Positions 630 through 57,983 of a stretch of DNA of 64,000 nucleotides are shown in pieces. The stretch lies in the NCBI GenBank assembly GCA_041664365.1, contig JBAYKW010000001.1:144862-208861 (forward strand). Direction: 5' to 3'. A model generated the notes under the pieces. That model had not been told where the DNA came from and searched no databases. It saw nothing but the letters and a program-made list of their open reading frames with translations. The position numbers were made by a program, and so were the translations under genes. Every line of letters begins with the position of its first letter. The first letter of the stretch is position 1. Source of the stretch: Patescibacteria group bacterium (GTDB taxonomy: Bacteria; Patescibacteriota; Patescibacteriia; UM-FILTER-42-10).

Positions 630-1154
630 ATGAACGAAAAAAATGAATTGATGATTGTCGTTGATAATAGTAATAATGCTATTGGGAAAGCGACAATGGA
701 GGAAATTAGGAAAAAGGGGCTTAATCACCGTTCAGTACACATTTTCATTTTCAATAAAGATAATGAACTCCTAATCTGTAAACGCCCTCATTTTAAAAAA
801 GCATACCCAAACATGTATACATCTTCTGCTGGAGGAAAAGTTAACTTTGGCGAGACATTTGAAGAATCCGCAAATCGAGAATTAAAAGAGGAATTAGGCA
901 TAGTAACTGAACTGTCAAAAGTTGGGTCTTACGTTATAGAAAATGAGCTGAAAAATAATAAAGTATTTCATGAACTATTTTATGGTATGTCAGAAGGACC
1001 GTTCAATCTTGATCCAAATGAGATTGTACAATGTGAATTTGTTAAATTAGATGAGATTAGTAAAAGAATAAAAAAGGATAATAATAATTTTGTAAGACCA
1101 TTTATTGATGCTTTTAAACTGTATTTAAAAATAAATGATACAAAGAAAAGTTGA
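630..1154 (+). CDS. Nudix hydrolase, isopentenyl-diphosphate isomerase (IDI type 1)-like
   Basis: The GETFEESANRELKEELGI Nudix box (GX5EX7REUXEEXGU) is present. Overall layout resembles small IDI-like Nudix proteins. Confidence 0.6.
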   Translation: MNEKNELMIVVDNSNNAIGKATMEEIRKKGLNHRSVHIFIFNKDNELLICKRPHFKKAYPNMYTSSAGGKVNFGETFEESANRELKEELGIVTELSKVGSYVIENELKNNKVFHELFYGMSEGPFNLDPNEIVQCEFVKLDEISKRIKKDNNNFVRPFIDAFKLYLKINDTKKS

Positions 1155-10738: not shown

Positions 10739-11215
10739 TTATTCAAAAATTATTCCAGATAAATATCTTTCTATCAAAATTTTGTCTGCCGGGAATAGAT
10801 TAAGTTTTAAAGCATCCTTTGGTGTATACCATTGCCAATCCAATCGTCCCTCGTTCTCGAGATCGGAAAAGTTACCATCTACATAATCTGCCTTCATTCC
10901 AATAGTAACATAACTTTTTTCTTTATCGGTTCTATAAAAATCATATACCGAAATAAGTTGAATATTTTCTATTTTAATACCACTTTCCTCTTTAACCTCA
11001 CGAGCAGCACATTCTTTTAGCGTTTCGCCTGATTCCCAATGTCCACCTGGAACACCAAAGACAGCTTCTCCCTTACGAGTATCTTTGCCAATGGCAATTT
11101 TCCCCTCTTTTGCTACAACCGTAGCCACTCCAATAGATGGAGGATTGGATTCATTATTTTGAGACATAAGTTTATTTTTAATATATATTTTGAAAATATT
11201 TCGCCTAACAGACAA
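10739..11215 (-). CDS. Nudix hydrolase
   Basis: Nudix box GGHWESGETLKECAAREVKEESGI. Confidence 0.7.
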   Translation of the reverse strand: MSVRRNIFKIYIKNKLMSQNNESNPPSIGVATVVAKEGKIAIGKDTRKGEAVFGVPGGHWESGETLKECAAREVKEESGIKIENIQLISVYDFYRTDKEKSYVTIGMKADYVDGNFSDLENEGRLDWQWYTPKDALKLNLFPADKILIERYLSGIIFE

Positions 11216-13159: not shown

Positions 13160-13232
13160 ACTTTTTATAATTTATTACTATTCAATATAATTGGCCTGCA
13201 AATGAGAAGTTGACCGTGAGTAATTGTGATAA

Positions 13233-13310
13233 AATTATAACATCACAGGCACAAGAAGACAATTTGCGAAAACCAGCTCTTTTAAGCTGGCTTTCTTGCG
13301 TACGCTCGCC
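13233..13310 (+). repeat. ~75-bp direct repeat copy 1, containing hairpin CCAGCTCTTTTAAGCTGG
   Basis: ...catcacaggcacaagaagacaatttgcgaaaaccagctcttttaagctggctttcttgcgtacg... recurs at 14063-14140 at roughly 90% identity. Confidence 0.75.
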
Positions 13311-13346
13311 TATACTTGCAGTCTATGGCGAGACGCACGCCGTTGG

Positions 13347-13979
13347 TTATTTAATAAAACTTAATATTTGTGACAGGTCATCAATAACGATGTCTGCACT
13401 GGATAAGTCATTACTAATTCTCGATTTGAAACCAATTGTTGTAATACCTAGCTTTTGTGCGACGGGAAAAATAGTAGACATATCATCGATATAAACAATA
13501 TTTTTTGGTTCAATATTAAGGAAACTAAGCGCTTTTTTCAGGCCCTCTGGGTGTGGTTTTGGATGTTCAACGTCCTGACCACTAATTATAAAAGAAAAAT
13601 ATTCTTGGAGATTAAATTTGTTTAAGCCAGAATTTATTCCATATTTATCTACACTGCTTAAAATTCCCATTTTAATTCCTTTTTGAGAAAGTGCCACTAG
13701 AACGTCGTTTGCATTTTTGGTGAGTTTCACAAAATCAGCGTACTTAGGATAGAAAGTTTTCATCATTGGCAATACCTTTTCTATATCTTTTTTTGATACT
13801 CCGTTGTCAAAAAAGAACTTATGCCAGTCTTGTTTTATTTCTTGAAACCAAGTAGAGGGGCCAACTGTTTTTCCGCTAAGTGCTTTAACGATGTCACAAT
13901 TTGCTCGAGCAACGGCATCTAAATCATCAATAATTACTCCATTCCAATCAAAGATAATAGCCTTTATTGTTTTATTCAT
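13347..13979 (-). CDS. HAD-family hydrolase (beta-phosphoglucomutase/phosphatase-like)
   Basis: Motif I IIFDWNGVI (DxDGV-type) and a C-terminal YIDDM motif IV. Confidence 0.75.
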   Translation of the reverse strand: MNKTIKAIIFDWNGVIIDDLDAVARANCDIVKALSGKTVGPSTWFQEIKQDWHKFFFDNGVSKKDIEKVLPMMKTFYPKYADFVKLTKNANDVLVALSQKGIKMGILSSVDKYGINSGLNKFNLQEYFSFIISGQDVEHPKPHPEGLKKALSFLNIEPKNIVYIDDMSTIFPVAQKLGITTIGFKSRISNDLSSADIVIDDLSQILSFIK

Positions 13980-14062
13980 AAATCATATATTCTATAATAA
14001 GCCCATAGAATTTCGCACAATAGGTAGTATATGCGAAGATGCCTTTGTGGTGACTATGATAC

Positions 14063-14140
14063 AATTTTAACATCACGGGCATAAGAAGACAATTTACAGA
14101 AAACCAGCTCTTTTAAGCTGGCTTTCTTGCATACGCGATG
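14063..14140 (+). repeat. ~75-bp direct repeat copy 2 (same orientation as 13233-13310)
   Basis: ...catcacgggcataagaagacaatttacagaaaaccagctcttttaagctggctttcttgcatacg... Confidence 0.75.
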
Positions 14141-14231
14141 ATAGAGTATATTCATTTTTATTACATCTTTATCATTAGAGTCAGTAACTCTATAACTGAG
14201 TAAGAAAAAATTTTAGATTCCCAATGTTAGC

Positions 14232-28426: not shown

Positions 28427-30718
28427 ATGGTAAAGAACATTACATCTCAAGAATCGAAAAATATATTAATCAAATCTGAGCTTCGTTATCGCAGACTTTT
28501 TGAAACCGCACAGGATGGCATACTATTGGTTGATTATAGCAATGGAATGATTCTGGATGTAAATCCTTACTTAATAAAAATGCTTGGTTACCCCAAGTCT
28601 ATTTTTTTAAAAAAATATCTTTGGGAAATTGGAATTTTTAAAGACATTGCGGCATCTAAAAATAATTTCAAAATACTAAAGAAAAAGAATTATGTCCGCT
28701 TTGAAGATCTACCGCTTGAATCAAAAAATGGAAATAGAGTAGATGTTGAATTTGTCTCTAACGTCTATAAAGTCGGTAATGAAACAATCATTCAGTGCAA
28801 CATACGGAATATCACAGATCGTGTGGATGCGGTAAAGCGCATGAAGGACAGTGAAAGGCAATTCAGGCATCTCTTTGAAAATATGGATAGCGGAGCTATT
28901 ATTTATCGGCCAATAAAAAATGGTAATGATTTTATAATTATAGATTTAAATAAAGCGGTAGAAAAGATAGAAAAAGTTCAAAAAGATAAGATAATTGGTA
29001 AAAGTATTTTGAAAGTATTCCCGGGTATAAAAGATTTCGGTCTTTTTAGTGTTTTGCAAAAAGTATGGAAAACCGGCAGATCAGCACATCATCCAATTTT
29101 GTTTTATCAAGATAAACGAATAACCGGTTGGAGAGAAAATAGGGTCAATAAGCTTCCGAACGGAGATATTTTTACTATCTATAATGATCTTTCCGAGCGT
29201 CGAGAAATGGAGCATCATATCGAAACATCTGAACTTCGATATCGGAGACTTTTCGAAACGGCTAAAGATGGAATTTTGCTATTAGACTTTTATACCGGTA
29301 TGATCATCGATGTGAACCAATATCTGATTGATATGTTAGGGTATCCTAAGTCAGTTTTTTTGAAAAAATATCTTTGGGAGATCGGTACATTTAGAGATAT
29401 AGCAGCTTCAAAAGATAATTTTAAGACACTGCAGAAAAAGAAATATGTCCGCTTTGAAGATCTGCCACTGGTAACAAAAAAAGGAGAAAAGGTGGCGGTT
29501 GAGTTTGTTTCAAATGCCTACAAGGTAGATGGGGAAAAAATTATTCAGTGTAACATTCGTAACATTACAGATCGGAAAAGGGCTCAACAAGAGACGATAG
29601 ATAAAGTAAATGAGATTAGTTTGAGAGATGAGGCAATCTTAGATTCAATCGGAGAGGCTGTCTTTGCGTGTGATCGGAATGGAATAATATTTATCTACAA
29701 CAGAATTGCTGAACAAATGATCGGTGTTTCTGTAAAAAACGCTATTGGTAAACATTACAATAAAATAGTAGATTTTGTTAAAGCAAGTGACGGTAAACCC
29801 GGGGATGATTTTATAAAAAAAGCAATCAAAGAGGATAAAATTACAAGAATGTCTATTAAGACACTTTTAATCAATACCAATGGCGATAAAATACCGGTGC
29901 TGGAGGTTGCTTCGCCAATAAAAGATTTAGCGGATAAAATTGTCGGCACGGTCGTTGTTTTTCATGATGTTACGAAGGAATTTCAAATAGATAAGGCAAA
30001 AACGGAATTTGTTTCACTTGCATCACATCAACTCCGCACTCCCTTAGCCAGTATCAACTGGACCAGCGAAATGCTTCTTAATAACGATTTCGGCAAAATC
30101 TCAGAAAAACAAAAGGAAGGTTTGAAAATAGTTCACAGTTCAGGCAGAAGAATGGCCGTGCTAATTAGCGCGCTTCTGAATGTTTCCAGATTGGAACTTG
30201 GTACTTTTCCCGTTAATTCAAGGCCATTAAAATTAGCAAAAATCTGTGATGAAGTGCTGGAAGAATTACGTGAAGATACTAGATCAAAGCAAATCAAGAT
30301 CGTGAAAGAATATTTTAAAGGTGAATTTCAGATTAATGCCGATCCAATTCTTTTGAAAATTATATGCCAGAATATAATTGCTAATGCTATTCGTTACTCG
30401 AAATCACAATCAGAAGTTACTATTAAAATTGATAAAGATAAATATAATATTTTACTGAGTGTCAGTGATCATGGGATTGGTATTCCAAAAGAAGAACAAG
30501 TAAAAGTATTTACTAAATTGTTCCGCGCGAGTAACGCTCAGCAAATGGAGACAGATGGTACTGGATTAGGGCTATATATTGTAAAATCAATTTTGGATTC
30601 AACTGGTGGTAAGATTTGGTTTAGTTCCGTGCTAGGTAATGGTTCTAAATTTTATGTGTCAATTCCACTGACTGGCATGCTATCTAAAAAGGGGACCAAA
30701 CCACTCGAAATTTTATAA
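28427..30718 (+). CDS. multi-PAS sensor histidine kinase (HisKA plus HATPase_c)
   Basis: PAS repeats (LFETA.DGILL.D...NIRNITDR), H-box FVSLASHQLRTPL, and N/G-boxes in the C-terminal ATPase. Confidence 0.85.
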   Translation: MVKNITSQESKNILIKSELRYRRLFETAQDGILLVDYSNGMILDVNPYLIKMLGYPKSIFLKKYLWEIGIFKDIAASKNNFKILKKKNYVRFEDLPLESKNGNRVDVEFVSNVYKVGNETIIQCNIRNITDRVDAVKRMKDSERQFRHLFENMDSGAIIYRPIKNGNDFIIIDLNKAVEKIEKVQKDKIIGKSILKVFPGIKDFGLFSVLQKVWKTGRSAHHPILFYQDKRITGWRENRVNKLPNGDIFTIYNDLSERREMEHHIETSELRYRRLFETAKDGILLLDFYTGMIIDVNQYLIDMLGYPKSVFLKKYLWEIGTFRDIAASKDNFKTLQKKKYVRFEDLPLVTKKGEKVAVEFVSNAYKVDGEKIIQCNIRNITDRKRAQQETIDKVNEISLRDEAILDSIGEAVFACDRNGIIFIYNRIAEQMIGVSVKNAIGKHYNKIVDFVKASDGKPGDDFIKKAIKEDKITRMSIKTLLINTNGDKIPVLEVASPIKDLADKIVGTVVVFHDVTKEFQIDKAKTEFVSLASHQLRTPLASINWTSEMLLNNDFGKISEKQKEGLKIVHSSGRRMAVLISALLNVSRLELGTFPVNSRPLKLAKICDEVLEELREDTRSKQIKIVKEYFKGEFQINADPILLKIICQNIIANAIRYSKSQSEVTIKIDKDKYNILLSVSDHGIGIPKEEQVKVFTKLFRASNAQQMETDGTGLGLYIVKSILDSTGGKIWFSSVLGNGSKFYVSIPLTGMLSKKGTKPLEIL
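28465..28823 (+). repeat. PAS-domain coding repeat copy A (intragenic tandem duplication; partner at 29227-29575)
   Basis: SELRYRRLFETAQDGILLVDYSNGMILDVNPYLIKMLGYPKSIFLKKYLWEIG... is nearly repeated as SELRYRRLFETAKDGILLLDFYTGMIIDVNQYLIDMLGYPKSVFLKKYLWEIG... Confidence 0.7.
29227..29575 (+). repeat. PAS-domain coding repeat copy B
   Basis: See copy A. About 80% nucleotide identity over ~350 bp by eye. Confidence 0.7.
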
Positions 30719-33580: not shown

Positions 33581-34138
33581 ATGAAATTTCCAAAAAATTC
33601 GAAAAAGGTATTTACAGGAAAAATATTCAGTGTATATCAATGGCGCCAGAAGATGTATGACGGGACGTATAAGATATTTGAAGGTGCCTATCGAAAGGCA
33701 ACTGTTGATATTATTGCAACGGTTGGTGATAAAATAATCGTACTGAAGCAGGAACAGCCAACTAAACCGCTTTTTCCGTCGCTTCCGGGTGGTGGTATTG
33801 AAAGCGGCCAAACTGCTTTACAAACCGTAAAAAGGGAACTGCTGGAAGAAACCGGGTTTGCTGCAAAAAAAATTATTAAATATAAATATTTTGAAGGAAC
33901 TCCCAAGATAATATTTCATCAGTTTGTTTTTATAGCCAAAGAATGTGCCAAAGTTTCCGATCAGCATCTGGATAGCGGTGAAAGAATTACAGTTACTTTT
34001 AAAACCTTTGATCAGTTTTTGCAGCTTTGCCGTGACGAACGTTTTACCGCAGTACTCGGCCTACGATTTATAATGTATGAAGCACTTTTGGATCGGAAAA
34101 AATATATGGAATTGAAAAAAGTGATATTCAAAAAATAG
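33581..34138 (+). CDS. Nudix hydrolase (ADP-ribose pyrophosphatase-like)
   Basis: Nudix box GGGIESGQTALQTVKRELLEETGF. Confidence 0.7.
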   Translation: MKFPKNSKKVFTGKIFSVYQWRQKMYDGTYKIFEGAYRKATVDIIATVGDKIIVLKQEQPTKPLFPSLPGGGIESGQTALQTVKRELLEETGFAAKKIIKYKYFEGTPKIIFHQFVFIAKECAKVSDQHLDSGERITVTFKTFDQFLQLCRDERFTAVLGLRFIMYEALLDRKKYMELKKVIFKK

Positions 34139-34148
34139 ACGAAAACTT

Positions 34149-34604
34149 ATGCCCAAGAGAGACTATTACCACATATCTTTAAAGCTGATTTTAAAAAATG
34201 AAAAAGACGAAGTTTTGGTATTGGGTTCAGACCCGAAAGGGAGTCTGTTAGGCAAATATGATTTGCCCGGCGGTAGAATTGACGAGTCGGAATTTAGTAC
34301 TCCCTATGAGCAAATTATCAGACGCGAAGTTTCCGAGGAAGTCGGTAATATTGAATTATCACTAAATCAAAAGCCGGTCGCCATCGGTCGCCATTTAATT
34401 CCGAAAAAATTAACGAGTGAGAATAAGGATATTCACATCATGTATATATTTTTTGAAGCAAAAATGATCAGTGGCAACATACAGATCAGTTCAGAACATA
34501 ATGGATATAAATGGGTTAAACTTGGCGAGAATGATCCCGCTGACTATTTCACATCCGGTATTTTGGAAGGAATAAATATGTATCTATCTAATTCTAATAA
34601 ATAA
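34149..34604 (+). CDS. Nudix hydrolase
   Basis: Nudix box GGRIDESEFSTPYEQIIRREVSEEVG. Confidence 0.65.
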   Translation: MPKRDYYHISLKLILKNEKDEVLVLGSDPKGSLLGKYDLPGGRIDESEFSTPYEQIIRREVSEEVGNIELSLNQKPVAIGRHLIPKKLTSENKDIHIMYIFFEAKMISGNIQISSEHNGYKWVKLGENDPADYFTSGILEGINMYLSNSNK

Positions 34605-34612
34605 TTTATAAA

Positions 34613-35053
34613 ATGAAGATCAAAGTCATTTGCGGTGCCGTGGTTGTAAAAGATAATAAATTTGTGATAGTCCAGGAAGCACAAGGTCTCGTGCGCGGTC
34701 TGTGGAATATTCCGGCCGGCCATCTGGATGACGAAGAGGATCTTAAAAGTGCGGCTGTACGAGAGGTGAAAGAGGAGACGGGTCTGGATGTTAAACTGGA
34801 AGGTCTGATTGGCATTTACCAACATAAAAGCTTGCATGGCAATAATGTCGTTGGCTTTTATTTCAAAGCGTCTGTACTAGGCGGTGAGCTGTTAATTAAT
34901 CCTGTTGAAATCCTTGATTCCAAATGGGTAACTTTTGAGGAGTTTTTGAATTACCCAGAAAATATTGTCCGAGCGCTACTGTTGAAAACAGTCATCAAAG
35001 ACTATTTGGATCATGGCTCTGTTGATAATAGAATAAATAGCGGAATTAATTAG
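34613..35053 (+). CDS. Nudix hydrolase
   Basis: Nudix box AGHLDDEEDLKSAAVREVKEETGL. Confidence 0.7.
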   Translation: MKIKVICGAVVVKDNKFVIVQEAQGLVRGLWNIPAGHLDDEEDLKSAAVREVKEETGLDVKLEGLIGIYQHKSLHGNNVVGFYFKASVLGGELLINPVEILDSKWVTFEEFLNYPENIVRALLLKTVIKDYLDHGSVDNRINSGIN

Positions 35054-35117
35054 TAACCTGTTAACATTGACAGCTAGATTTAGTTGATATATACTTGATA
35101 TGTTAAGTAAATATTAA

Positions 35118-42138: not shown

Positions 42139-42167
42139 TTGATTTTTAAGCTAAAATATGCTAAGAT
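42139..42167 (+). promoter_or_regulatory. sigma70-like promoter (TTGATT-17-TAAGAT) for paralog 1; duplicated at 42844-42872
   Basis: ttgatttttaagctaaaatatgctaagat. The same string with 4 substitutions lies upstream of paralog 2. Confidence 0.5.
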
Positions 42168-42196
42168 ACGGTCATCTAAGTATTAATCAAAATATT

Positions 42197-42688
42197 ATGG
42201 CAGATCCAAAAATGCCAATGCCTGGCACACCAGATGATAATATGCCTGACGAGACTTCAGTTGATGAGAATAATCAGGAGACAATGGAGGCGGAAGTAAA
42301 CGAAAAAATAAGAGTATTTTTTGCTGATATAACAGAGTTGCGAGCTACCGGTGAGTTTGCTAGGAAAGACATATATAGTCAGTATTTTGACCAAGTATTT
42401 GATTCAATAAGTAAAAGTAAAGGTGAATATGTAAATTTTGATCATGTTGCTAACCAAGTTGACAATGCTACAGATATAATAAGAAGACTTCAGTTTAAAT
42501 GCGAAGCCGAAGCGCGTCATAAAAAGGATGAAGGAAATGATGTTATTAGTGAAAAAATGAATCAATTAGTAAAAAGAGCAGAAGAGATCTTACATCAGAT
42601 AATGGTAATAGCTTATAGAAAACATTACGATCTAGATTATGATGAGGTCCAGAGGGCATATGCAGAAATTCAAAAAGACGAAGAATGA
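42197..42688 (+). CDS. hypothetical acidic protein, M-A-D-P-K-x-P N-terminal family, paralog 1
   Basis: Starts MADPKMPMPG. The C-terminal RAEEILHQIM is shared with paralog 2. The ORF-track start at 42158 lies inside the conserved promoter string and is rejected. Confidence 0.4.
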   Translation: MADPKMPMPGTPDDNMPDETSVDENNQETMEAEVNEKIRVFFADITELRATGEFARKDIYSQYFDQVFDSISKSKGEYVNFDHVANQVDNATDIIRRLQFKCEAEARHKKDEGNDVISEKMNQLVKRAEEILHQIMVIAYRKHYDLDYDEVQRAYAEIQKDEE

Positions 42689-42843
42689 CATTTTGATGAA
42701 AATTTAAACAATAGTAAGAAAGATCAAGTGAAATTGTAACTCATAGAATTGGTGATTGATAGCAATCATCATGATCAGTAATCTTAGAAAAGAATAGTCA
42801 GTAAAATAGACCACAATAGTAGGTGGTCTATTGTTTTGTAGCT

Positions 42844-42872
42844 TGATTTTTAAGCTAAAATGTGGTAAACTT
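42844..42872 (+). promoter_or_regulatory. duplicated sigma70-like promoter (TTGATT-17-TAAACT) for paralog 2
   Basis: ttgatttttaagctaaaatgtggtaaact. Near-identical to 42139-42167. Confidence 0.5.
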
Positions 42873-42899
42873 CACTTAATTAAGTATTAAAACAATATT

Positions 42900-43307
42900 A
42901 TGGCTGATCCAAAACTACCAACATATGGGCAGGATAAAGAGTCTGAAAATAATGTGGAAGTAATGAAGTCATTAGTAAGTCAAAAAACAGAATCGCTATT
43001 TTCTGATTTAATGGAATCATATTCAGAAGATGAAGATCTTAACCTGGAGGATTATCATAGTCAGAATTTTGAATATTATCTAAATAGAATAAGACAATAT
43101 AGTTATATATATCCAGATGGACAGAATCCTGATATGGAGGAAGATGAGCGTTCCTTTTTAAAAAGAATTAAAACTATATGTGAAATGGAAAAAGAATTTC
43201 AGGCAGAAAATATGAATGAAGTTCTGCGAAATAAATATCAAAATTTTACTGAAAGAGCCGAAGAAATTTTACAACTGATAGGTGCCATAATTGATGCGTC
43301 AAAATAA
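42900..43307 (+). CDS. hypothetical acidic protein, M-A-D-P-K-x-P family, paralog 2
   Basis: Starts MADPKLPTYG. C-terminal ERAEEILQLIGAI. Confidence 0.4.
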   Translation: MADPKLPTYGQDKESENNVEVMKSLVSQKTESLFSDLMESYSEDEDLNLEDYHSQNFEYYLNRIRQYSYIYPDGQNPDMEEDERSFLKRIKTICEMEKEFQAENMNEVLRNKYQNFTERAEEILQLIGAIIDASK

Positions 43308-43338
43308 ATAATTATAGTGATAAATAAAGAAAATATTT

Positions 43339-43896
43339 ATGCAAGAAAAACAAGATCCGATATACGCAGATGATGATTATGAATCTGTCGGACTGCTATT
43401 TCGGCTACGCGCGCCGGCACTGATTATTGGGCTGTTTTTGGGCATTATCATTTCTTTTGTTACTTCTAATTTTGAGAAAGTTTTGGAAAAAGACTTTCAA
43501 GTTGCCTATTTTATTCCGTTTATTGTCTATATCGCAGACGCGATTGGCTCACAGACGACGGCTATCTATTCGCGCGACTTAAAGTCCGGAACGACAAAGC
43601 TTGGGAACTATATGAAAAAAGAGTTTTTGCTCGGCCTGTTATTTGGAACAGCGTTTGGTGTTGTATCAGGATTCGTGACTTATTTATGGCTACATAATTA
43701 TTTATTATCAATTACGATAGCTATTTCGGCGGTGCTGGCTATTACTACCGCACCATTAGTAGCCTTGGTTGTAGCCACTTTGTTCCAAAGATCGCACAGA
43801 GATCCGGCGGCGGGAACCGCTCCTATCGCAACCGTACTCCAGGATATTCTAAGCGTTGTGATATACGGTACTGTGGCAAGTATCATAATATTATAA
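43339..43896 (+). CDS. MgtE-family divalent-cation transporter membrane domain only (no N-terminal MgtE_N/CBS module)
   Basis: YFIPFIVYIADAIGSQT and GTAPIATVLQDILSVVIY match the MgtE TM-domain signatures. At 185 aa it has no cytosolic sensor domains. Confidence 0.6.
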   Translation: MQEKQDPIYADDDYESVGLLFRLRAPALIIGLFLGIIISFVTSNFEKVLEKDFQVAYFIPFIVYIADAIGSQTTAIYSRDLKSGTTKLGNYMKKEFLLGLLFGTAFGVVSGFVTYLWLHNYLLSITIAISAVLAITTAPLVALVVATLFQRSHRDPAAGTAPIATVLQDILSVVIYGTVASIIIL

Positions 43897-43921
43897 ACAC
43901 ATAATAAACTAACTAAATTTT

Positions 43922-44461
43922 ATGGGAGATCCAAAACCACCGTTACCAGATGAATTTAACGATCCGCAAATTGACCGTGTGCTTGGCGATGCAGAAATGA
44001 GTGATACGAACCACCTCATTGATAGTGCTGCAAGTGCGGGCAATCCTGAGCAAGGCACCTACCGTGAACCAGCCGACCTAGAAGCACACATCGCGTTGCG
44101 AGACGAGATGTTGGATCAATACTACCGCTATAAAGATAAGTCAAAGCGACCAACTCAAAGAATTGGAGAAAATTTTGAGCCAGCGGCAGATCTGGATGGT
44201 CTTTTGCGACAGATAGAGGTTGTTACCGATGAGTGGCACCGTGATCTGGGTCCTGACGATTCACTAGATTATATGCGAAACGAAGCAGTTCGTGTACTAG
44301 AACTACCACTTATTCAATCACTCGCAATACGTATTAACGAGATACCTGAAGAAAAGCGTAGCGACGTCATTGCACTTCTAGAAGACTTTGCAACTATTGG
44401 TGATGATAGGCGCGCAAGAGAAGAAGCACAATCCATTATTGAACGTCTTCAAGGTGCATAG
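43922..44461 (+). CDS. hypothetical acidic protein, M-G-D-P-K-P-P family, divergent paralog 3 (higher GC)
   Basis: Starts MGDPKPPLPDE. C-terminal ...ARREEAQSIIERLQGA resembles the RAEEIL tail of paralogs 1 and 2. GC is ~47%. Confidence 0.35.
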   Translation: MGDPKPPLPDEFNDPQIDRVLGDAEMSDTNHLIDSAASAGNPEQGTYREPADLEAHIALRDEMLDQYYRYKDKSKRPTQRIGENFEPAADLDGLLRQIEVVTDEWHRDLGPDDSLDYMRNEAVRVLELPLIQSLAIRINEIPEEKRSDVIALLEDFATIGDDRRAREEAQSIIERLQGA

Positions 44462-44462
44462 T

Positions 44463-45107
44463 ATGGTAAAAGCTGTAATATTCGACATGGATGGTGTGAT
44501 ATCAGACACGCAGAAATTCCACTCAAAAGTTGAAAGTGAATTACTTGGTCGTTTCGGGATTGTTATAACCCCGGCGCAGATAACCGAAAGGTATGCCGGA
44601 GTAAAGACGACTGAATTTTTTACAGATTTGCTGGAAAAAAACGGCGCAAGTTTTGATCTGGATGAACTGATGAAAGAAAAATGGGTGATGATGGAAAATT
44701 TATCAAAGTCACATGTAGATGAAATTACTGGATCCGTCTCTCTGATAAAAATGCTGACTGAGATGAATATTAAACTAGCAGTGGCATCGGCGTCTGATAC
44801 AAAATATGTAATTTCAGTATTGGATAAATTAGCGATAAGGGACTATTTTGAAGCGGTTGTAACGGGACAAATGGTTTCTCGCGGAAAGCCCGATCCGGAA
44901 ATATTTCTGCTGGCTGCGGAAAAAATTGGTGTTGATCCGAAAAATTGCGTAGTTATTGAAGACGGAAAAAGCGGGATGCAGGCAGCAGCTGCTGCGCAAA
45001 TGAAAAGTATTGGCTTGGTTAACGATAAAAATGCTGATTACCCGACAAAAAACCTGGTAACTACTTTGCCTGAAATTACATTTGGATATATTAATAAATT
45101 GGTTTGA
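44463..45107 (+). CDS. HAD-family hydrolase (beta-phosphoglucomutase-like)
   Basis: VIFDMDGVISDT motif I, LAVASAS motif II, and C-terminal VVIEDGKSGMQAA motif IV. Start moved to the Met at 44463 to remove overlap with the upstream gene. Confidence 0.75.
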   Translation: MVKAVIFDMDGVISDTQKFHSKVESELLGRFGIVITPAQITERYAGVKTTEFFTDLLEKNGASFDLDELMKEKWVMMENLSKSHVDEITGSVSLIKMLTEMNIKLAVASASDTKYVISVLDKLAIRDYFEAVVTGQMVSRGKPDPEIFLLAAEKIGVDPKNCVVIEDGKSGMQAAAAAQMKSIGLVNDKNADYPTKNLVTTLPEITFGYINKLV

Positions 45108-49095: not shown

Positions 49096-49120
49096 TTAAT
49101 GTAATTACCGCTATCTCTCT

Positions 49121-49153
49121 GTCATTATCGGGCTTGGCCCGGTAATCCAAAAA
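49121..49153. repeat. palindromic repeat unit B1 (GTCATTATCGGGCTTGGCCCGGTAATCCAAAAA)
   Basis: Hairpin CGGGC-ttgg-CCCGG. About 75% identical to unit A. Confidence 0.7.
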
Positions 49154-49160
49154 CAATCAA

Positions 49161-49205
49161 TGGATCCCCGGACCACCTTCTGCGAAGGCGTCCGAGGATG
49201 ACAAT
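49161..49205. repeat. palindromic repeat unit D (GGATCCCCGGACC-loop-GTCCGAGGATGACA) with internal hairpin CCTTC-tgc-GAAGG
   Basis: Same terminal arms as C1 with a longer loop. Confidence 0.6.
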
Positions 49206-49242
49206 ACTGGGGTTTACTGACATGTCAAATACAATTTTTAAT

Positions 49243-49272
49243 GTCATCTTCGGACTTGGTCCGGAGATCCAC
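49243..49272. repeat. palindromic repeat unit A1 (GTCATCTTCGGACTTGGTCCGGAGATCCAC)
   Basis: Exact 30-nt copy recurs at 49645-49674. Hairpin CGGAC-ttg-GTCCG. Confidence 0.8.
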
Positions 49273-49281
49273 GAATAGAAT

Positions 49282-49569
49282 ATGAACCAATACTACGTTT
49301 ACATAATGGCAAGTAAAAAGAATGGAACGCTTTACATAGGCGTTACGAATAATATTATCAGAAGAGTATATGAGCATAAGAATAATGAAGTTGAAGGATT
49401 TTCGAAGAAATATAAAGTGCATAGACTAGTCTATTACGAGCAAACAGAAAATGTGGAGAGTGCATTGAATCGTGAAAAGCAATTAAAAAAGTGGAATAGA
49501 GAGTGGAAAATTAATTTAATACAAAAAGAAAATCCGAATTGGAAAGATTTATATAACGAGCTAATATAA
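49282..49569 (+). CDS. GIY-YIG nuclease-family protein (UPF0213/YhbQ-like)
   Basis: YYVYIMASKKNGTLYIGVTNNIIRRVYEHK contains the GIY...YIG...R...E catalytic motifs. At 95 aa it resembles E. coli YhbQ. Confidence 0.75.
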   Translation: MNQYYVYIMASKKNGTLYIGVTNNIIRRVYEHKNNEVEGFSKKYKVHRLVYYEQTENVESALNREKQLKKWNREWKINLIQKENPNWKDLYNELI

Positions 49570-49575
49570 AGACAT

Positions 49576-49626
49576 GGATTCCCGTTCCCCGATCAAGTCG
49601 AGGACAAGCTTTGCGGGAATGACAAA
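49576..49626. repeat. palindromic repeat unit C2 (GGATTCCCG-long loop-CGGGAATGACA)
   Basis: Same arms as C1 with an expanded loop. Confidence 0.6.
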
Positions 49627-49644
49627 CAATGTAGTATAACAAAT

Positions 49645-49674
49645 GTCATCTTCGGACTTGGTCCGGAGATCCAC
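49645..49674. repeat. palindromic repeat unit A2 (exact copy of A1)
   Basis: gtcatcttcggacttggtccggagatccac is identical to 49243-49272. Confidence 0.8.
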
Positions 49675-49689
49675 AAACAATCTAAAACT

Positions 49690-49722
49690 GTCATTCTCGG
49701 GCTTGACCCGGGAATCCAAAAA
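49690..49722. repeat. palindromic repeat unit B2 (GTCATTCTCGGGCTTGACCCGGGAATCCAAAAA)
   Basis: Differs from B1 at 4 positions. Confidence 0.7.
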
Positions 49723-51220: not shown

Positions 51221-51817
51221 ATGAAGTTTGAAGTTGAAAAAAGAAGTAAAATAGATGATGCTGAAGAAATAGAAAGAGTTAAGGAATACTTATCTGCACA
51301 CGGAGAGTACCTGGGCTCAAAAATGATGCGCTCTTTTCTATTTCGGAATCCTACATCTCTACGAATTCGTCTGATTGAAGGAAAGGATTCAGCATTGGTT
51401 ACAATAAAGAAAGGTGAATATGCTGATCCGGCGATGGAAGAAGAGGAGTATGAAGTACCATTAACAGAATTAGATGCTTTTATTGAGCAAAAAAAAGTTG
51501 AAGGCTATGAGGCATGTTCAGAAGTAAATACTTTTCGCGAAACATATATTTTAAATGGATTGAAAATTGAGATAAATGATATTGATTCTTTGGGTTTGAT
51601 TATTGAGATAGAGGCATTGACTGAAGATAAAGATGAAATAGATGGTTTAGAAGAACGAATTCGTGAGACAATGCAGGAATTAAATTTGCCGGAACTCGAT
51701 CCATCTGAATATAAATTGATGATGGACGCAATGCAGGACGAAACAAATAGGCCAGTAAGTGAGCAAGTTTTTACAGTTGATTGGGATGAAGATATTAATG
51801 AGAAGAAAATTAAGTAA
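51221..51817 (+). CDS. CYTH-domain protein (triphosphate tunnel metalloenzyme, CyaB/ThTPase-like)
   Basis: N-terminal MKFEVEKRSKI resembles the CYTH ExExK motif. Acidic beta-strand pattern throughout. Confidence 0.45.
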   Translation: MKFEVEKRSKIDDAEEIERVKEYLSAHGEYLGSKMMRSFLFRNPTSLRIRLIEGKDSALVTIKKGEYADPAMEEEEYEVPLTELDAFIEQKKVEGYEACSEVNTFRETYILNGLKIEINDIDSLGLIIEIEALTEDKDEIDGLEERIRETMQELNLPELDPSEYKLMMDAMQDETNRPVSEQVFTVDWDEDINEKKIK

Positions 51818-52374
51818 TGAGTCTAATGAGTAGAACCTGGAAAAAATTGAATTCAAAGATTGTATATAGTAACTCTTGGATAAAAGTCCATGAGGATCAA
51901 GTTTTGAAGCCGGATGGTAAGGAAGGTATCTATGGTTATCTGGAAAAAAACCAAGCTTGCTTTGTGATAGCGCTGGATAATGAAGAAAATATCTATCTGG
52001 TAAAACAGTTCAGATATGCTCTGCAAAAAACAATTCTGGAATTACCGGCCGGTACGGTAAATAATGAAGATATCGCTGATAGAGCAAAAGCGGAACTTTT
52101 GGAAGAAGCAGGAATAGAAGCAAAGGAATGGAAAAGGCTGGGTGGGTTTTACGTAGCACCAGGGCATGAATCTACTTATATTAATGTTTACCTCGCGACG
52201 GATTTAGATTTATCCAAACTATCTACCAGTGGGCAAGATGATGATGAATCAATATTGGAGATAGTTAAAGTAAGTCAGCCAGAATTAAAGAAGATGTTAA
52301 CAGATGGAAAGATTGAATGCGGAATATCGATAGCCGCTTTGAATCTGTTTTTTCTGAGTCATAATAAAAGTTAA
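51817..52374 (+). CDS. Nudix hydrolase (ADP-ribose pyrophosphatase NudF-like)
   Basis: Nudix box AGTVNNEDIADRAKAELLEEAGI. N-terminal substrate-recognition beta-domain. Confidence 0.7.
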   Translation: MSLMSRTWKKLNSKIVYSNSWIKVHEDQVLKPDGKEGIYGYLEKNQACFVIALDNEENIYLVKQFRYALQKTILELPAGTVNNEDIADRAKAELLEEAGIEAKEWKRLGGFYVAPGHESTYINVYLATDLDLSKLSTSGQDDDESILEIVKVSQPELKKMLTDGKIECGISIAALNLFFLSHNKS

Positions 52375-52384
52375 GATTGTGAGT

Positions 52385-52460
52385 ATGAAAAAGATTGAGA
52401 AAAAAGTTTGGCAGGAATATTTTCAGTAAATATTGGATGGTAACAAAAAATTAAAAACTT
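52385..52460 (+). pseudogene. decayed 5' fragment of the DUF3850 gene (intact copy at 53479)
   Basis: atgaaaaagattgagaaaaaagtttggcaggaatattttcagTAAatattggatgg... is ~88% identical to 53479-53550 and translates MKKIEKKVWQEYFQ* with an in-frame stop. Confidence 0.7.
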
Positions 52461-53478: not shown

Positions 53479-53742
53479 ATGAAAAAAATTGAGAAAAAAG
53501 TTTGGCCGGAATATTTTCAGCAAATACTGGACGGTGACAAGAAATACGAACTTCGTCTTGCTGATTTTGACTGCCAACCCGGTGATGTATTGCTATTAAA
53601 AGAATGGGACAATAAAACCAAAAAATATACCGGCAGGGAAATTGAAAAGGAAGTAACTTCCATTTTGAAAACAAAGGATGTAAAATTTTGGAATGAAGAG
53701 GAAATAGATAAACATGGGTTTCAGATTATTTCTTTTAAGTAA
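53479..53742 (+). CDS. DUF3850 (ASCH/PUA-like) domain protein
   Basis: KVWPEYFQQILDGDKKYELRLADFDCQPGDVLLLKEWD matches the DUF3850 consensus (W.EYF..V..G.K.FE.R.ND..FQVGD.L.L.E). Confidence 0.55.
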   Translation: MKKIEKKVWPEYFQQILDGDKKYELRLADFDCQPGDVLLLKEWDNKTKKYTGREIEKEVTSILKTKDVKFWNEEEIDKHGFQIISFK

Positions 53743-53788: not shown

Positions 53789-54286
53789 ATGGAAAAATTC
53801 AGTCTGCCGATTATTTCCGCGATTATTGAGAGGCAAAAAGACGGAGAAACAGAAATATTGGTTCAAACTAGGTGGAAACCGGAAGAAGATCCTGTATATA
53901 CGGGATGTTTGGAAATTCCGGCAGGAAAAATAAGGGAATTTGAAAATGTCTATGATGCTTTAAATAGAGAGGTGAAGGAAGAAACGGGGTTGAAAATAAC
54001 CAGTATTTTTCCAGATATTAAAACAAAAACGCATTCTCCAAAGGATGACGGATCGTTCGCTTTTCAGCCGTTTTGCTGCCAGCAACAAACAAAAGGAGGA
54101 CGACCATGGATCGGTTTCGTTTTTATTTGCAATGTTGAGGATAAGACACCATTAAAGGAGGGGGATAATACAAGAGATATTCGTTGGATAAAAAAATCTG
54201 AATTGAAGAGAATTTTTGAAGAAACACCAGAAAAGATATTTACCCTGCAATTAGGGGTTTTGGATTATTACTTTAATAAAAGTTAG
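53789..54286 (+). CDS. Nudix hydrolase
   Basis: Nudix box AGKIREFENVYDALNREVKEETGL. Confidence 0.65.
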   Translation: MEKFSLPIISAIIERQKDGETEILVQTRWKPEEDPVYTGCLEIPAGKIREFENVYDALNREVKEETGLKITSIFPDIKTKTHSPKDDGSFAFQPFCCQQQTKGGRPWIGFVFICNVEDKTPLKEGDNTRDIRWIKKSELKRIFEETPEKIFTLQLGVLDYYFNKS

Positions 54287-54321: not shown

Positions 54322-54418
54322 ATGATCAAAATCAGAAAACACTTGCCGAAAGATATTCCGTACCGTGTTTTATGGTTAATTACCACAAGGTAAACAGGTT
54401 CACTGGTGAGGGAGTTTG
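54322..54418 (+). pseudogene. decayed 5' fragment (~100 nt) of the GNAT acetyltransferase gene (intact copy at 56592)
   Basis: atgatcaaaatcagaaaacacttgccgaaagatattccgtaccgtgttttatggtt... is ~88% identical to 56592-56695. It translates MIKIRKHLPKDIPYRVLWL then frameshifts (1-nt deletion) to a stop. Confidence 0.7.
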
Positions 54419-54476
54419 CTTCGAAACCACAATAAAATGATTTTACTAATTATTTAATGATGTGTTCATAGAATTT

Positions 54477-55892: not shown

Positions 55893-55945
55893 ATGCTCAA
55901 AATCCGAAAAAATTTACCGAGAGATATTCCATGCCGGTTTTTTTA
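55893..55945 (+). pseudogene. decayed 5' fragment (~50 nt) of the GNAT acetyltransferase gene
   Basis: atgctcaaaatccgaaaaaatttaccgagagatattccatgccggttttt is ~85% identical to 56592-56641. It translates MLKIRKNLPRDIPCRFF*. Confidence 0.65.
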
Positions 55946-55958
55946 AACAAAAAAATAT

Positions 55959-56591: not shown

Positions 56592-57101
56592 ATGCTCAAA
56601 ATCAGAAAACATTTACCGAAAGATATTCCGTACCGTGTTTTATGGTTGAATGACCATAAGGTAAACAAGTTTACTGGTGAGGAAGTTTGGGAAGAGACAA
56701 CACTGAGGAAACAAAAACAGTGGTTTGCCGAATATCAAAAGTCTGACGAAAAACGTTTTTTTACCATCTGTGACGGAACGAAGCCGGTTGGATTCATGGG
56801 ACTGTCTAAAATATCCAAGATAAATAAAAATGCGGATTTGTTTGTTGCCATCGGTGATGCTGATTACCGCGGAAAAGGCGTAGGAAGATTAGTAATGACC
56901 TGGATAATTGATTACGGTTTTAATAAGCTCAAACTGCATAAAATTTATTTGAACGTCTATGAGGATAATATTCCGGCAGTTAATTTATATAAATCTTTGG
57001 GCTTTGTCGTAGAGGGGAAGATAAAAGATGATGTTTTCTTTGGAGGGAAATTCCATAACACTTTGTACATGGCAAAATTTTATAAACGATCTAAAAAGTA
57101 A
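56592..57101 (+). CDS. GNAT-family N-acetyltransferase
   Basis: YRGKGVGRLVMTWIIDYGF...LKLHKIYLNVYEDNIPAVNLYKSLGF contains acetyl-CoA-binding motif A (R/QxxGxG/A). Confidence 0.75.
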   Translation: MLKIRKHLPKDIPYRVLWLNDHKVNKFTGEEVWEETTLRKQKQWFAEYQKSDEKRFFTICDGTKPVGFMGLSKISKINKNADLFVAIGDADYRGKGVGRLVMTWIIDYGFNKLKLHKIYLNVYEDNIPAVNLYKSLGFVVEGKIKDDVFFGGKFHNTLYMAKFYKRSKK

Positions 57102-57578: not shown

Positions 57579-57983
57579 ATGTCAGAAAAAAGAGTTTCAG
57601 CAGTGATTATCAGTGGAGATAAACAAATATTGTTAGTCCATAGGATAAAAAATGGCAGTGAATATTTTGTTTTGCCCGGCGGGAGTGTTGAGACGGAAGA
57701 AGATCATATATCTGCCCTGATCAGAGAAGTAAAAGAGGAAACAAATTTAGATGTGAAAATTGGAAAAGAACTTTGGCAGGTAAAAAGTGATGCTGATCGG
57801 AGAATTCAACATATATTCCTAGTTTCAAAATATGCTGGTAATCTGGAATTAGGCAGTCCGGAAAAAGAAAGGCAATCAGAAAGTAACAAATACTTTTTGG
57901 AGTGGCGTAAGATTGAAGATATTAGCAATATTGATTTTTATCCAGAAGAAATTAGATTAAACATTATTAAAGAATTCGCATGA
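57579..57983 (+). CDS. Nudix hydrolase
   Basis: Nudix box GGSVETEEDHISALIREVKEETNL. Confidence 0.7.
   Translation: MSEKRVSAVIISGDKQILLVHRIKNGSEYFVLPGGSVETEEDHISALIREVKEETNLDVKIGKELWQVKSDADRRIQHIFLVSKYAGNLELGSPEKERQSESNKYFLEWRKIEDISNIDFYPEEIRLNIIKEFA

What the first reader, a model, noticed from the sequence alone, without database searches (positions are those of the whole stretch)
33581..35053. Three Nudix hydrolase genes in tandem; nine Nudix genes in 64 kb
Nudix boxes are readable in ORFs at 630, 10739, 33581, 34149, 34613, 51817, 53789 and 57579. The IDI-like one at 630 is counted too, which makes nine. The three at 33581-35053 are adjacent, co-oriented and not close paralogs of one another, which implies distinct substrates. 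This density far exceeds that of typical bacterial genomes. It suggests heavy investment in nucleotide-pool sanitation or salvage, or that Nudix genes are the preferred cargo of the cassette mechanism above, since two Nudix genes directly precede the decayed gene-start repeats.
Basis: seen in the sequence. Interest (0 to 1): 0.55.

Follow-up and report, generated by a model that had tools for sequence, protein, structure and literature searches.

The report
Eight Nudix hydrolase genes, three tandem
A 64-kb stretch of an uncultured Patescibacteria (CPR) chromosome carries eight unrelated-looking genes for small Nudix "housecleaning" hydrolases. Three lie head to tail, the density is unusually high, and the enzymes themselves are ordinary, gained and lost one by one between close relatives.

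Summary
Eight ORFs pass Pfam NUDIX, and a six-frame HMM scan finds no ninth. All eight keep the three catalytic glutamates of the Nudix box. Three have lineage-conserved deviations elsewhere in the box. The eight share at most about 30% identity over more than 100 residues and match different structural relatives: YfcD, NudF/ADP-ribose pyrophosphatase (two genes), NudJ, NUDT15/NudI-like, and one with no close relative.

The trio at 33581-35053 has spacers of 10 and 8 nt and ends just before marR's own conserved promoter. Two close relatives carry one or two Nudix genes in the same slot, so the trio is not a fixed operon. N53789 and N57579 are missing from one relative. A ninth Nudix family present in both relatives is replaced here by a HAD hydrolase.

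The density (125 per Mb) far exceeds the controls: 0 in 624 kb of non-CPR DNA and 1 in 440 kb of presumed CPR DNA. The genome-wide count could not be obtained.

The "cassette cargo" idea is not supported. No segment bounded by gene-start repeats contains a Nudix gene.

Verdict: a lineage-specific, locally clustered set of ordinary Nudix enzymes. The substrates are inferred, not shown.

The parts
630..1154 (+). N630: YfcD-like Nudix hydrolase, 174 aa, with a canonical Nudix box (GKVNFGETFEESANRELKEELGI). It overlaps the downstream PHP-domain gene by 20 nt.
   Evidence: Pfam NUDIX 2e-18. NCBIfam YfcD 93.7 bits (cut-off 152) and IDI 68.5 bits (cut-off 127). PDB 2fkb YfcD 2.5e-17 over the full length. 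Context.
10739..11215 (-). N10739: MutT/NUDT15/AtNUDX1-like Nudix hydrolase with a canonical box. The longest ORF is 158 aa. Public gene calls use a 142-aa version that starts at 11167.
   Evidence: Pfam 2e-18. PDB 4kyx 6e-18, AtNUDX1 and NUDT15. Gene call.
33581..34138 (+). N33581: first gene of the trio. ADP-ribose-pyrophosphatase-like, 185 aa, with an N-terminal extension. In the box the GX5E glutamate is replaced by Q, while RELLEE is intact.
   Evidence: Pfam 1e-11. PDB 1v8i ADPRase 1.1e-9, query residues 10-166 against chain residues 4-162. The family is widespread in CPR, with 215 clusters below 1e-10. E->Q occurs in only 3 of 30 aligned members.
34149..34604 (+). N34149: second gene of the trio. 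A Patescibacteria-wide 150-aa Nudix family whose Nudix box is three residues longer (GX5E-X10-REUXEEXG). It is the only trio member present in both close relatives.
   Evidence: Pfam 3.9e-9. 165 clusters below 1e-8; every cluster that carries a taxon label is Patescibacteria or unclassified 'bacterium'. The invariant box is shown in alignment A6. AF2 model pLDDT 92, nearest 3grn, NUDT15 and NudI. Orthologues: 84% in L094 and 75% in L091.
34613..35053 (+). N34613: third gene of the trio. NudJ-like, 146 aa, with a canonical box. It is present only in the window's genome, exactly between the N34149 stop and the marR promoter.
   Evidence: Pfam 1.2e-18. PDB 3dku NudJ 1.2e-9. 45 clusters below 1e-10, the best at 71-72%. 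Homologues sit in unrelated contexts. Absent from L091 and L094.
35067..35095 (+). Promoter-like site of marR (TTGACA-17-TATACT), conserved in three genomes. It marks the downstream limit of the trio's transcription unit.
   Evidence: 11 of 12 matches. Conserved in the window, L094 and L091.
51817..52374 (+). N51817: NudF/ADP-ribose-pyrophosphatase-like, 185 aa. Its start overlaps the stop of the upstream CYTH gene (51221-51817). The box is one residue shorter and has R->A (KAELLEE), a deviation shared with its L094 orthologue. A proline lies 15 residues after the box.
   Evidence: Pfam NUDIX 2.5e-7 and NDPSase_N. PDB NudF 5c7q 1.3e-23. NCBIfam TIGR00052 53.9 bits (cut-off 79.55). Alignment with the 86%-identical L094 orthologue.
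53789..54286 (+). N53789: Nudix hydrolase of a small family, 165 aa, canonical box, with no characterised relative. It follows an ASCH/DUF3850 gene (53479-53742) and precedes a decayed GNAT gene start. It is absent from L094.
   Evidence: Pfam 3.2e-15. No PDB sequence match below 1e-5. AF2 model pLDDT 97, with best fold matches at TM 0.7 or lower and 20% identity or lower. 461 representatives. Fusions to DUF2064/CofC, methyltransferase, GNAT, ASCH and others.
57579..57983 (+). N57579: MutT-like Nudix hydrolase, 134 aa. The last G of the box is N. It is wedged between the 152-aa gene and the Lactamase_B gene, with a 2-nt gap on one side and a 4-nt overlap on the other. It is absent from L094.
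   Evidence: Pfam 1.9e-15. PDB 3id9 2.7e-10. In L094 the two flanking orthologues are adjacent.
44388..45107 (+). HAD hydrolase gene. It occupies the slot where both close relatives carry an orthologous 148-aa Nudix gene, a ninth family that is absent from the window.
   Evidence: The L091 and L094 Nudix proteins are 63% identical. No remnant is left in the window.
52385..52455 (+). Decayed copy of the first ~70 nt of the ASCH gene (90% identical, now with a stop codon), directly after N51817.
   Evidence: Repeat family D5; alignment.
54322..54425 (+). Decayed copy of the first ~105 nt of the GNAT gene (whose intact start is at 56592), directly after N53789. A second, shorter copy lies at 55893-55948.
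   Evidence: Repeat family D2; alignment.

Best explanation
The window is chromosomal DNA of an uncultured Patescibacteria (CPR) bacterium. It carries eight separate genes for small, single-domain Nudix pyrophosphohydrolases, about one gene in ten.

Each protein has the Mg-binding glutamates of the Nudix helix. Each is therefore most likely an active enzyme that cleaves a pyrophosphate bond in a nucleoside-diphosphate derivative. That is inferred from the family, not shown.

The eight belong to eight different subfamilies, which suggests different substrates:
- N33581 and N51817: ADP-ribose or NDP-sugar type.
- N10739, N34149 and N57579: (d)NTP or oxidised-nucleotide type.
- N34613: NudJ-like.
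- N630: YfcD-like.
- N53789: unknown.

The three adjacent genes are probably one transcript. They do not form an ancient operon. The same slot between def/FTR1 and marR holds one, two or three Nudix genes in three close relatives. Other Nudix genes appear, disappear or are swapped for a HAD hydrolase at otherwise syntenic positions.

The cluster is therefore a lineage-specific, local accumulation of housecleaning or salvage hydrolases. It sits in the flexible slots of a conserved, housekeeping-rich chromosomal region and was built by single-gene gains and losses.
For: Organism and contig:
- NCBI names the proteins as Patescibacteria group bacterium, on a contig of 392 kb.

Family membership and diversity:
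- Eight ORFs pass PF00293 and no ninth exists.
- The REUXEE glutamates are intact in all eight.
- Identity between the eight is 21-30% over alignments longer than 100 residues.
- Each has a different nearest solved structure.
- AF2 models of N34149 (pLDDT 92) and N53789 (pLDDT 97) adopt the Nudix fold.

Trio anatomy:
- The spacers are 10 and 8 nt.
- No strong internal promoter-like site lies between the genes. The one terminator-like hit, inside N34149, is within the number expected from shuffles.
- marR's promoter-like site is conserved downstream.

Gene turnover between relatives:
- L091 has orthologues of N33581 and N34149 only. L094 has N34149 only.
- N53789 and N57579 are absent from L094, although the flanking genes are conserved.
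- An orthologous Nudix gene in L091 and L094 is replaced by a HAD gene in the window.

The region is chromosomal:
- fmt, def, gltX, bipA, fpg, the HU gene and purH are interspersed.
- The GC content of the Nudix genes is within the window's range.

Density controls (HMM of the eight against six-frame translations):
- BipA-selected loci: 0 Nudix in 624 kb of non-CPR DNA, and 1 in 440 kb of relatives with 64-82% BipA identity.
- Flanks of the ADPRase-like gene: 25 extra Nudix per Mb in CPR against 2.5 per Mb in non-CPR.

Literature:
- Nudix gene number scales roughly linearly with genome size, and E. coli has 13 (PMC10311068).
Against: - No substrate is shown, and none of the eight reaches an NCBIfam equivalog cut-off.
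- Three boxes deviate from the consensus: E->Q in N33581, a 3-aa insertion in N34149, and R->A with a one-residue deletion in N51817. Some could be altered or weak enzymes.
- Co-transcription of the trio is inferred from spacing only.
- The genome-wide Nudix count is unknown, so 'expansion' could be only a local cluster.
- The direction of each gain or loss rests on three genomes and on a topology inferred from identities.
- The BipA-selected 'CPR' loci were assigned by an identity gap (64-82% against 51% or less), not by taxonomy.
Confidence: 0.6

Rival explanations
1. The window merely samples a cluster. These eight are all, or nearly all, of the genome's Nudix genes, the genome-wide number is within the upper-normal range, and the clustering is a by-product of this region being the flexible part of the chromosome.
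For: The 9.4 kb upstream and 7.9 kb downstream of the window hold no Nudix gene. BipA neighbourhoods of 32 presumed CPR relatives hold almost none. Many non-Nudix genes also vary in the same slots, including the PAS kinase, FTR1, HAD, CYTH, GDSL and 2-Hacid_dh genes.
Against: CPR genomes are typically 0.5-1.5 Mb (own knowledge). Even if there were no further Nudix genes, eight in a genome of at most ~1.5 Mb is at least 5 per Mb, about twice the E. coli density of 13 in 4.6 Mb (PMC10311068). Extra Nudix genes are about ten times more frequent near the ADPRase-like gene in CPR than in non-CPR genomes.
Confidence: 0.25
2. Nudix genes are the preferred cargo of a cassette-like insertion mechanism that leaves decayed gene-start repeats.
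For: N51817 and N53789 each end 10-35 nt before a decayed gene start. N34613, N53789 and N57579 are present or absent between relatives with precise junctions.
Against: Every segment bounded by a scar and the intact start contains non-Nudix genes only: the 313-aa unknown, the 163-aa unknown plus 2-Hacid_dh, and the GDSL gene. The trio, N630, N10739 and N57579 have no such repeats. No integrase family appears in the window's Pfam tables.
Confidence: 0.08
3. Some of the Nudix genes serve phage defence or counter-defence, or nucleotide signalling such as ADP-ribose or NAD-derived messengers, rather than housecleaning.
For: Seven of the eight hit the PADLOC candidate model PDC-S07 at 21-53 bits. 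Phage Nudix families also match.
Against: These are generic Nudix-domain matches. No recognised defence partners (TIR, SIR2, restriction, CBASS and the like) appear in the Pfam tables of the window. The genes sit among housekeeping genes.
Confidence: 0.04
4. Several of the MutT-like members act on RNA 5' ends (RppH/NudC-type decapping) rather than on free nucleotides.
For: Fold matches of N53789 and N34149 include NUDT12, NudC, Dcp2 and RppH.
Against: These matches have TM 0.7 or lower and 21% identity or lower, and they are mixed with NTPases and ADPRases. NCBIfam RppH and NudC scores are far below the cut-offs.
Confidence: 0.1

Closest known systems
Nudix hydrolase superfamily (Pfam PF00293; MutT, NudF/ADPRase, NudJ, NudI/NUDT15, YfcD)
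   Same: All eight pass the Pfam gathering score and carry the REUXEE glutamates. Two were modelled and have the Nudix fold. Each resembles a different characterised branch.
   Different: None reaches a curated equivalog cut-off. Identity to solved relatives is low, at most 24% for the two genes with modelled structures. Three have lineage-conserved deviations of the Nudix box.
Nudix-rich genomes such as Deinococcus radiodurans (about 20 or more Nudix genes in 3.3 Mb; own knowledge) and E. coli with 13 (PMC10311068)
   Same: Many divergent Nudix paralogs occur in one genome, and the usual reading is housecleaning.
   Different: Here eight lie within 57 kb of a small-genome symbiont-type bacterium, with three in tandem. 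The whole-genome number is unknown.
E. coli YfcD / type-1 IPP isomerase clade
   Same: N630 aligns over its full length with YfcD (2fkb, 2.5e-17) and more weakly with IDI models.
   Different: N630 has a canonical hydrolase Nudix box. At the place of the IDI Cys/His motif it reads SSAGGKV (sequence; motif position from own knowledge). It is therefore not an isomerase.
Integron gene cassettes
   Same: Single promoter-less genes are inserted or absent between fixed neighbours, with short direct repeats around some inserts.
   Different: No integrase family appears in the window's Pfam tables. The repeats are 5' ends of the downstream gene, not attC sites. No Nudix gene lies inside a repeat-bounded segment.

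Membership tests
Nudix superfamily (PF00293) | Profile match above the curated gathering score | tested here: met
   All eight score 31-68 bits against a cut-off of 21.1.
Nudix superfamily (PF00293) | Nudix box GX5EX7REUXEEXGU with the three catalytic/metal-binding glutamates | tested here: met
   The glutamates of RE..EE are present in all eight. The box is fully canonical in N630, N10739, N34613 and N53789. Deviations elsewhere: N57579 G->N, N33581 E->Q, N34149 with X10 spacing, N51817 with GX4E and R->A.
Nudix superfamily (PF00293) | Alpha/beta/alpha Nudix fold | tested here: met
   Tested for two of the eight. N34149 model pLDDT 92, and N53789 model pLDDT 97. In both, all top PDB matches are Nudix proteins.
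Nudix superfamily (PF00293) | Mg-dependent pyrophosphohydrolase activity | not testable with these tools
   Needs enzyme assays.
ADP-ribose pyrophosphatase (NudF/YffH, TIGR00052; NudE) | Curated family score, N-terminal domain, and a proline ~15-16 residues after the box (the last from own knowledge: Dunn et al. 1999) | tested here: inconclusive
   N51817: NDPSase_N domain, NudF 5c7q 1.3e-23, Pro at +15 (sequence), but TIGR00052 53.9 bits, below the 79.55 cut-off, and R->A in the box. N33581: full-length match to 1v8i at 1e-9, but NudE 34 bits, below the 169 cut-off, and the proline is not conserved in the family.
MutT 8-oxo-dGTPase (TIGR00586 / PRK10776) | Equivalog score | tested here: not met
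   The best score among the eight is 37 bits against cut-offs of 97.9 and 148.
Type-1 IPP isomerase (IDI) | Equivalog score, and the catalytic Cys/Glu with His metal ligands in place of a hydrolase Nudix box | tested here: not met
   N630 scores 68.5 bits against a cut-off of 127. YfcD scores higher, at 93.7 bits. A canonical Nudix box is present.
Integron-type gene cassette array | Tyrosine recombinase IntI next to an array of cassettes, each ending in an attC site | tested here: not met
   No integrase or recombinase family is listed for any gene of the window. The repeats found are gene 5' ends. attC sites were not searched for with a dedicated model.
Anti-phage defence system (PADLOC) | Specific model match together with system partners | tested here: not met
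   Only the generic single-gene candidate PDC-S07 matched, at 21-53 bits. No partner genes are present.

The most novel reading that the evidence does not exclude
This Patescibacteria lineage lacks much of nucleotide and cofactor biosynthesis. It may rely on an enlarged, fast-turning-over set of Nudix hydrolases (together with HAD and other small hydrolases) as its main way of breaking down scavenged host metabolites such as ADP-ribose, NDP-sugars, NAD, CoA and capped RNA. The genes would be exchanged between related genomes at fixed chromosomal slots by recombination anchored in the 5' end of the downstream gene, leaving the gene-start scars seen at 52.4, 54.3 and 55.9 kb. Under this reading, Nudix clustering would be a general signature of CPR genomes.
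Probability: 0.15. Interest if true: 0.6.

Novelty: new member of a known kind. Interest (0 to 1): 0.33.

Why it matters
If the enrichment holds genome-wide and across the clade, it would point to Nudix-type hydrolysis of scavenged nucleotide derivatives as a noticeable part of the stripped-down metabolism of CPR bacteria. Nothing on this was found in the literature library searched.

It also supplies concrete targets for enzymology. Two are Patescibacteria-wide families: the ADPRase-like 185-aa family, and the 150-aa family whose Nudix box is invariably three residues longer. A third is an uncharacterised family (N53789) with unusual domain fusions.

In itself, though, the finding is eight ordinary small hydrolase genes.

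Tried and rejected
- Ninth Nudix gene: a six-frame HMM scan and the Pfam tables found none.
- Named enzymes: no NCBIfam equivalog cut-off was reached by any of the eight.
- Defence role: PADLOC gave only the generic PDC-S07 model, and PHROGs gave only generic phage Nudix families.
- RNA genes: no Rfam family and no tRNA in the window.
- Foreign origin by composition: the GC content of the Nudix genes is within the spread of the window's genes.
- Fixed partnership of the ADPRase-like gene with a particular second Nudix: the neighbouring Nudix genes in other CPR loci belong to different families.
- Conserved context for N34613: its homologues sit next to pilus genes, or next to HIT/GNAT/CN_hydrolase genes.
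- Remnant of the ninth Nudix family in the HAD slot: none.
- Gene-start repeats next to the trio, N630, N10739 or N57579: none.
- Genome-wide count: not obtainable. The source genome was not among the best genome contigs matches, and contig look-ups are limited to 10 kb around window genes.
- Literature on Nudix expansion in CPR: three searches found nothing relevant.
- ASCH-Nudix-GNAT as a functional module: fusions of the N53789 family with ASCH (1) and GNAT (2) exist. The commonest partner is DUF2064/CofC-like and many partners are one-offs, so this is kept only as a weak hint.
Full report
**What is there**

Greedy ORF calling gives 82 genes in the 64-kb window. Eight of them pass Pfam NUDIX (PF00293) above the gathering score:
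- 630-1154 (+)
- 10739-11215 (-)
- 33581-34138 (+)
- 34149-34604 (+)
- 34613-35053 (+)
- 51817-52374 (+)
- 53789-54286 (+)
- 57579-57983 (+)

An HMM built from these eight was searched with all filters off against every six-frame segment of 40 aa or more. It finds the eight at E of 1e-41 or lower and nothing else below E=1. The precomputed Pfam tables that cover the window list no further NUDIX gene.

The window has no tRNA and no Rfam match.

**Source**

The proteins are exact matches to NCBI entries MFA6391265-MFA6391341, named "MAG... [Patescibacteria group bacterium]", on a contig of 392 kb. The window is positions 144850-208849 of ENA contig k141_744634. An independent Logan assembly of SRR6484324 shows the same def-FTR1-Nudix-Nudix-Nudix order, so the trio is not an assembly artefact.

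The 9.4 kb before the window and the 7.9 kb after it hold no Nudix gene.

**The proteins**

Alignments longer than 100 residues among the eight are 21-30% identical. Only short stretches around the box score higher.

All eight keep the glutamates of REUXEE. The box is canonical in N630, N10739, N34613 and N53789. The other four deviate:
- N57579 has N in place of the last G.
- N33581 has Q in place of the GX5E glutamate. This occurs in only 3 of 30 family members.
- N34149 has three extra residues (GX5E-X10-RE..EE). This is invariant across 24 aligned Patescibacteria clusters, so it is a family trait and not decay.
- N51817 is one residue shorter and reads KAELLEE. Its 86%-identical orthologue in a relative shares this, whereas proteobacterial homologues are canonical.

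None of the eight reaches any NCBIfam equivalog cut-off. The nearest solved structures differ from gene to gene:

| Gene | Nearest solved structure | E-value |
|---|---|---|
| N630 | YfcD (2fkb) | 2.5e-17 |
| N10739 | 4kyx, AtNUDX1, NUDT15 | 6e-18 |
| N33581 | ADP-ribose pyrophosphatase (1v8i), full length | 1e-9 |
| N34149 | 3grn | 1.7e-7 |
| N34613 | NudJ (3dku) | 1e-9 |
| N51817 | NudF (5c7q) | 1.3e-23 |
| N53789 | none below 1e-5 | - |
| N57579 | 3id9 | 2.7e-10 |

AlphaFold models give confident Nudix folds. N34149 has pLDDT 92, with nearest matches 3grn, NUDT15 and NudI. N53789 has pLDDT 97, with its best matches at TM of about 0.7 or lower and identity of 20% or lower.

N630 is YfcD-like and carries a hydrolase-type box. 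It is not an IPP isomerase.

**The trio**

The spacers are 10 and 8 nt. No strong promoter-like site lies inside the trio, and the single terminator-like hit there is within the number expected from shuffles. The best promoter-like site of the region (TTGACA-17-TATACT, 35067-35095) lies just after N34613, in front of marR. That promoter region is conserved in two relatives. One transcript for the three genes is the likely arrangement, but this is inferred.

**Relatives**

Two contigs have BipA 97% identical to the window's and conserved gene order. L091 is from Logan SRR11844740, and L094 is Ga0172379_10000553.

Between def/FTR1 and marR:
- The window has three Nudix genes.
- L091 has two, orthologues of N33581 (73%) and N34149 (75%).
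- L094 has one, the N34149 orthologue (84%).

N34613 is found only in the window. Its nearest homologues (71-72%, including Uhrbacteria) lie in unrelated contexts.

Between gltX and the Lactamase_B gene, L094 has N51817orth-159aa-GNAT-181aa-LactB. The window has CYTH-N51817-[ASCH'-313aa-ASCH-N53789-GNAT']-163aa-[2-Hacid_dh-GNAT''-GDSL]-GNAT-152aa-[N57579]-LactB.

Upstream of the 98-aa gene and Memo, both relatives carry an orthologous 148-aa Nudix gene (63% identical to each other). The window carries a HAD hydrolase there, with no remnant of that Nudix gene.

Nudix genes therefore come and go singly at fixed positions. N34149 and N51817 are the stable ones in the genomes that cover their positions. 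The region itself is chromosomal, with fmt, def, fpg, the HU gene, bipA, gltX and purH interspersed. The GC content of the Nudix genes is unremarkable.

**Is the density unusual?**

Eight genes in 64 kb is 125 per Mb. At 2.8, 7 or 20 per Mb, the Poisson probability of eight or more in 64 kb is 2e-11, 3e-8 or 6e-5.

Two control sets were scanned with the same HMM:
- Loci fetched with BipA, so not selected for Nudix. 47 non-CPR loci (624 kb) hold none. 32 loci with 64-82% BipA identity (440 kb; presumed CPR relatives) hold one partial hit. L094 holds three.
- Loci fetched with the ADPRase-like family. The flanks in 23 CPR-titled loci hold 9 extra Nudix genes in 356 kb (25 per Mb). The flanks in 53 non-CPR loci hold 2 in 789 kb (2.5 per Mb). 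Fisher tests give p=0.0007 against the non-CPR flanks and p=0.007 against the CPR BipA loci.

In CPR genomes, Nudix genes therefore tend to sit near one another. The partners belong to varying families.

Published numbers state that Nudix gene count scales with genome size, with 13 in E. coli (PMC10311068). For a CPR genome of at most ~1.5 Mb (typical size, own knowledge), the window alone implies at least 5 per Mb. The true genome-wide figure could not be obtained.

**The cassette idea**

The repeats are real:
- About 70 nt of the ASCH gene start is repeated right after N51817.
- About 105 nt of the GNAT gene start is repeated right after N53789.
- About 55 nt of the GNAT gene start is repeated again after the 2-Hacid_dh gene.

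Each forms the pattern Y'-Z-Y. The inserted Z is the 313-aa unknown, the 163-aa unknown plus 2-Hacid_dh, or the GDSL lipase. It is never a Nudix gene.

The pattern fits integration anchored by homology in the 5' end of gene Y, either Campbell-type or homology-facilitated illegitimate recombination. This is inference. In L094 the 163-aa gene lies directly upstream of GNAT, the arrangement a donor would need. No integrase family is annotated in the window.

"Nudix as preferred cargo" is therefore not supported. [quoted passage not shown] is supported, though on a small sample.

**Function**

The window is rich in other small nucleotide or phosphoester hydrolases: three HAD genes, CYTH, LigT, Maf, an inorganic pyrophosphatase, PHP, His_Phos_1, Exo_endo_phos and Lactamase_B. 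That fits a housecleaning or salvage reading, but no substrate is shown.

The N53789 family is sometimes fused to other domains: a DUF2064/CofC-like nucleotidyltransferase (the most frequent partner), a methyltransferase, GNAT, ASCH, ABM or GGACT. Its position here between ASCH and a former GNAT start echoes two of those fusions, which is only a weak hint.

PADLOC and PHROGs give only generic Nudix matches. Three literature searches found no report of Nudix enrichment in CPR.

**Verdict**

The feature is real and well above chance. It consists of ordinary members of a known superfamily. The notable points are:
- the density in a small-genome bacterium;
- the gene-by-gene turnover, including a Nudix/HAD swap;
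- two Patescibacteria-wide Nudix families, one with an elongated Nudix box.

Interest is moderate to low.

Noticed in passing
window 52385-52455, 54322-54425, 55893-55948 (intact starts at 53479 and 56592): There are decayed copies of the 5' ends of the ASCH and GNAT genes, arranged as Y'-Z-Y around inserted non-Nudix genes. In relative L094 the 163-aa gene lies directly upstream of GNAT. The pattern fits homology-anchored insertion at gene starts.
   Followed up: partly
window 44388-45107; L091 18018-18464; L094 11802-12248: The same slot upstream of the 98-aa gene and Memo holds a HAD hydrolase in the window. Both close relatives hold an orthologous Nudix gene there (63% identical to each other). 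The swap is clean and leaves no remnant.
   Followed up: yes
window 49118-49722 (copies at 49118, 49240, 49642, 49687): Four 36-nt repeats with an internal palindrome bracket the 95-aa GIY-YIG ORF (49282-49569). The stretch 49100-49290 folds far better than shuffles (z = -5.5). It may be a small mobile or homing element, or a structured RNA. There is no Rfam match.
   Followed up: partly
window 34149-34604 and alignment A6: This is a Patescibacteria-wide Nudix family of about 150 aa. Its Nudix box is invariably three residues longer (GX5E-X10-REUXEEXG), and it has further invariant residues (GRH, F..E, EH, W, SG.L.G...Y). No characterised member was found.
   Followed up: partly
window 42139-44461: Three tandem paralogous small genes (42158-42688, 42900-43307 and about 43922-44461) share near-identical promoter and start sequences (repeat families D4 and D14). 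They have no Pfam match.
   Followed up: no
window 13220-13305 and 14050-14136: An ~86-nt direct repeat (81-97% identical) lies in the intergenic gaps at 13160-13346 and 13980-14231 among minus-strand genes, on either side of the HAD gene 13347-13979. Part of it contains a hairpin-like AGCTCTTTTAAGCTGGCT.
   Followed up: no
window 28474-28773 and 29227-29526: A 300-nt internal repeat (72% identical) lies inside the 763-aa PAS histidine-kinase gene. It corresponds to duplicated PAS modules.
   Followed up: no
L009 12757-18102 (just beyond the window's 3' end): A 1781-aa protein combines alpha-2-macroglobulin domains with faint Hint/intein-type hits. It is large for a CPR genome.
   Followed up: no
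window 51221-52374: The stop of the CYTH gene overlaps the start of the NudF-like N51817. In relative L094 three unknown genes take the place of CYTH, so the pairing is not conserved.
   Followed up: partly
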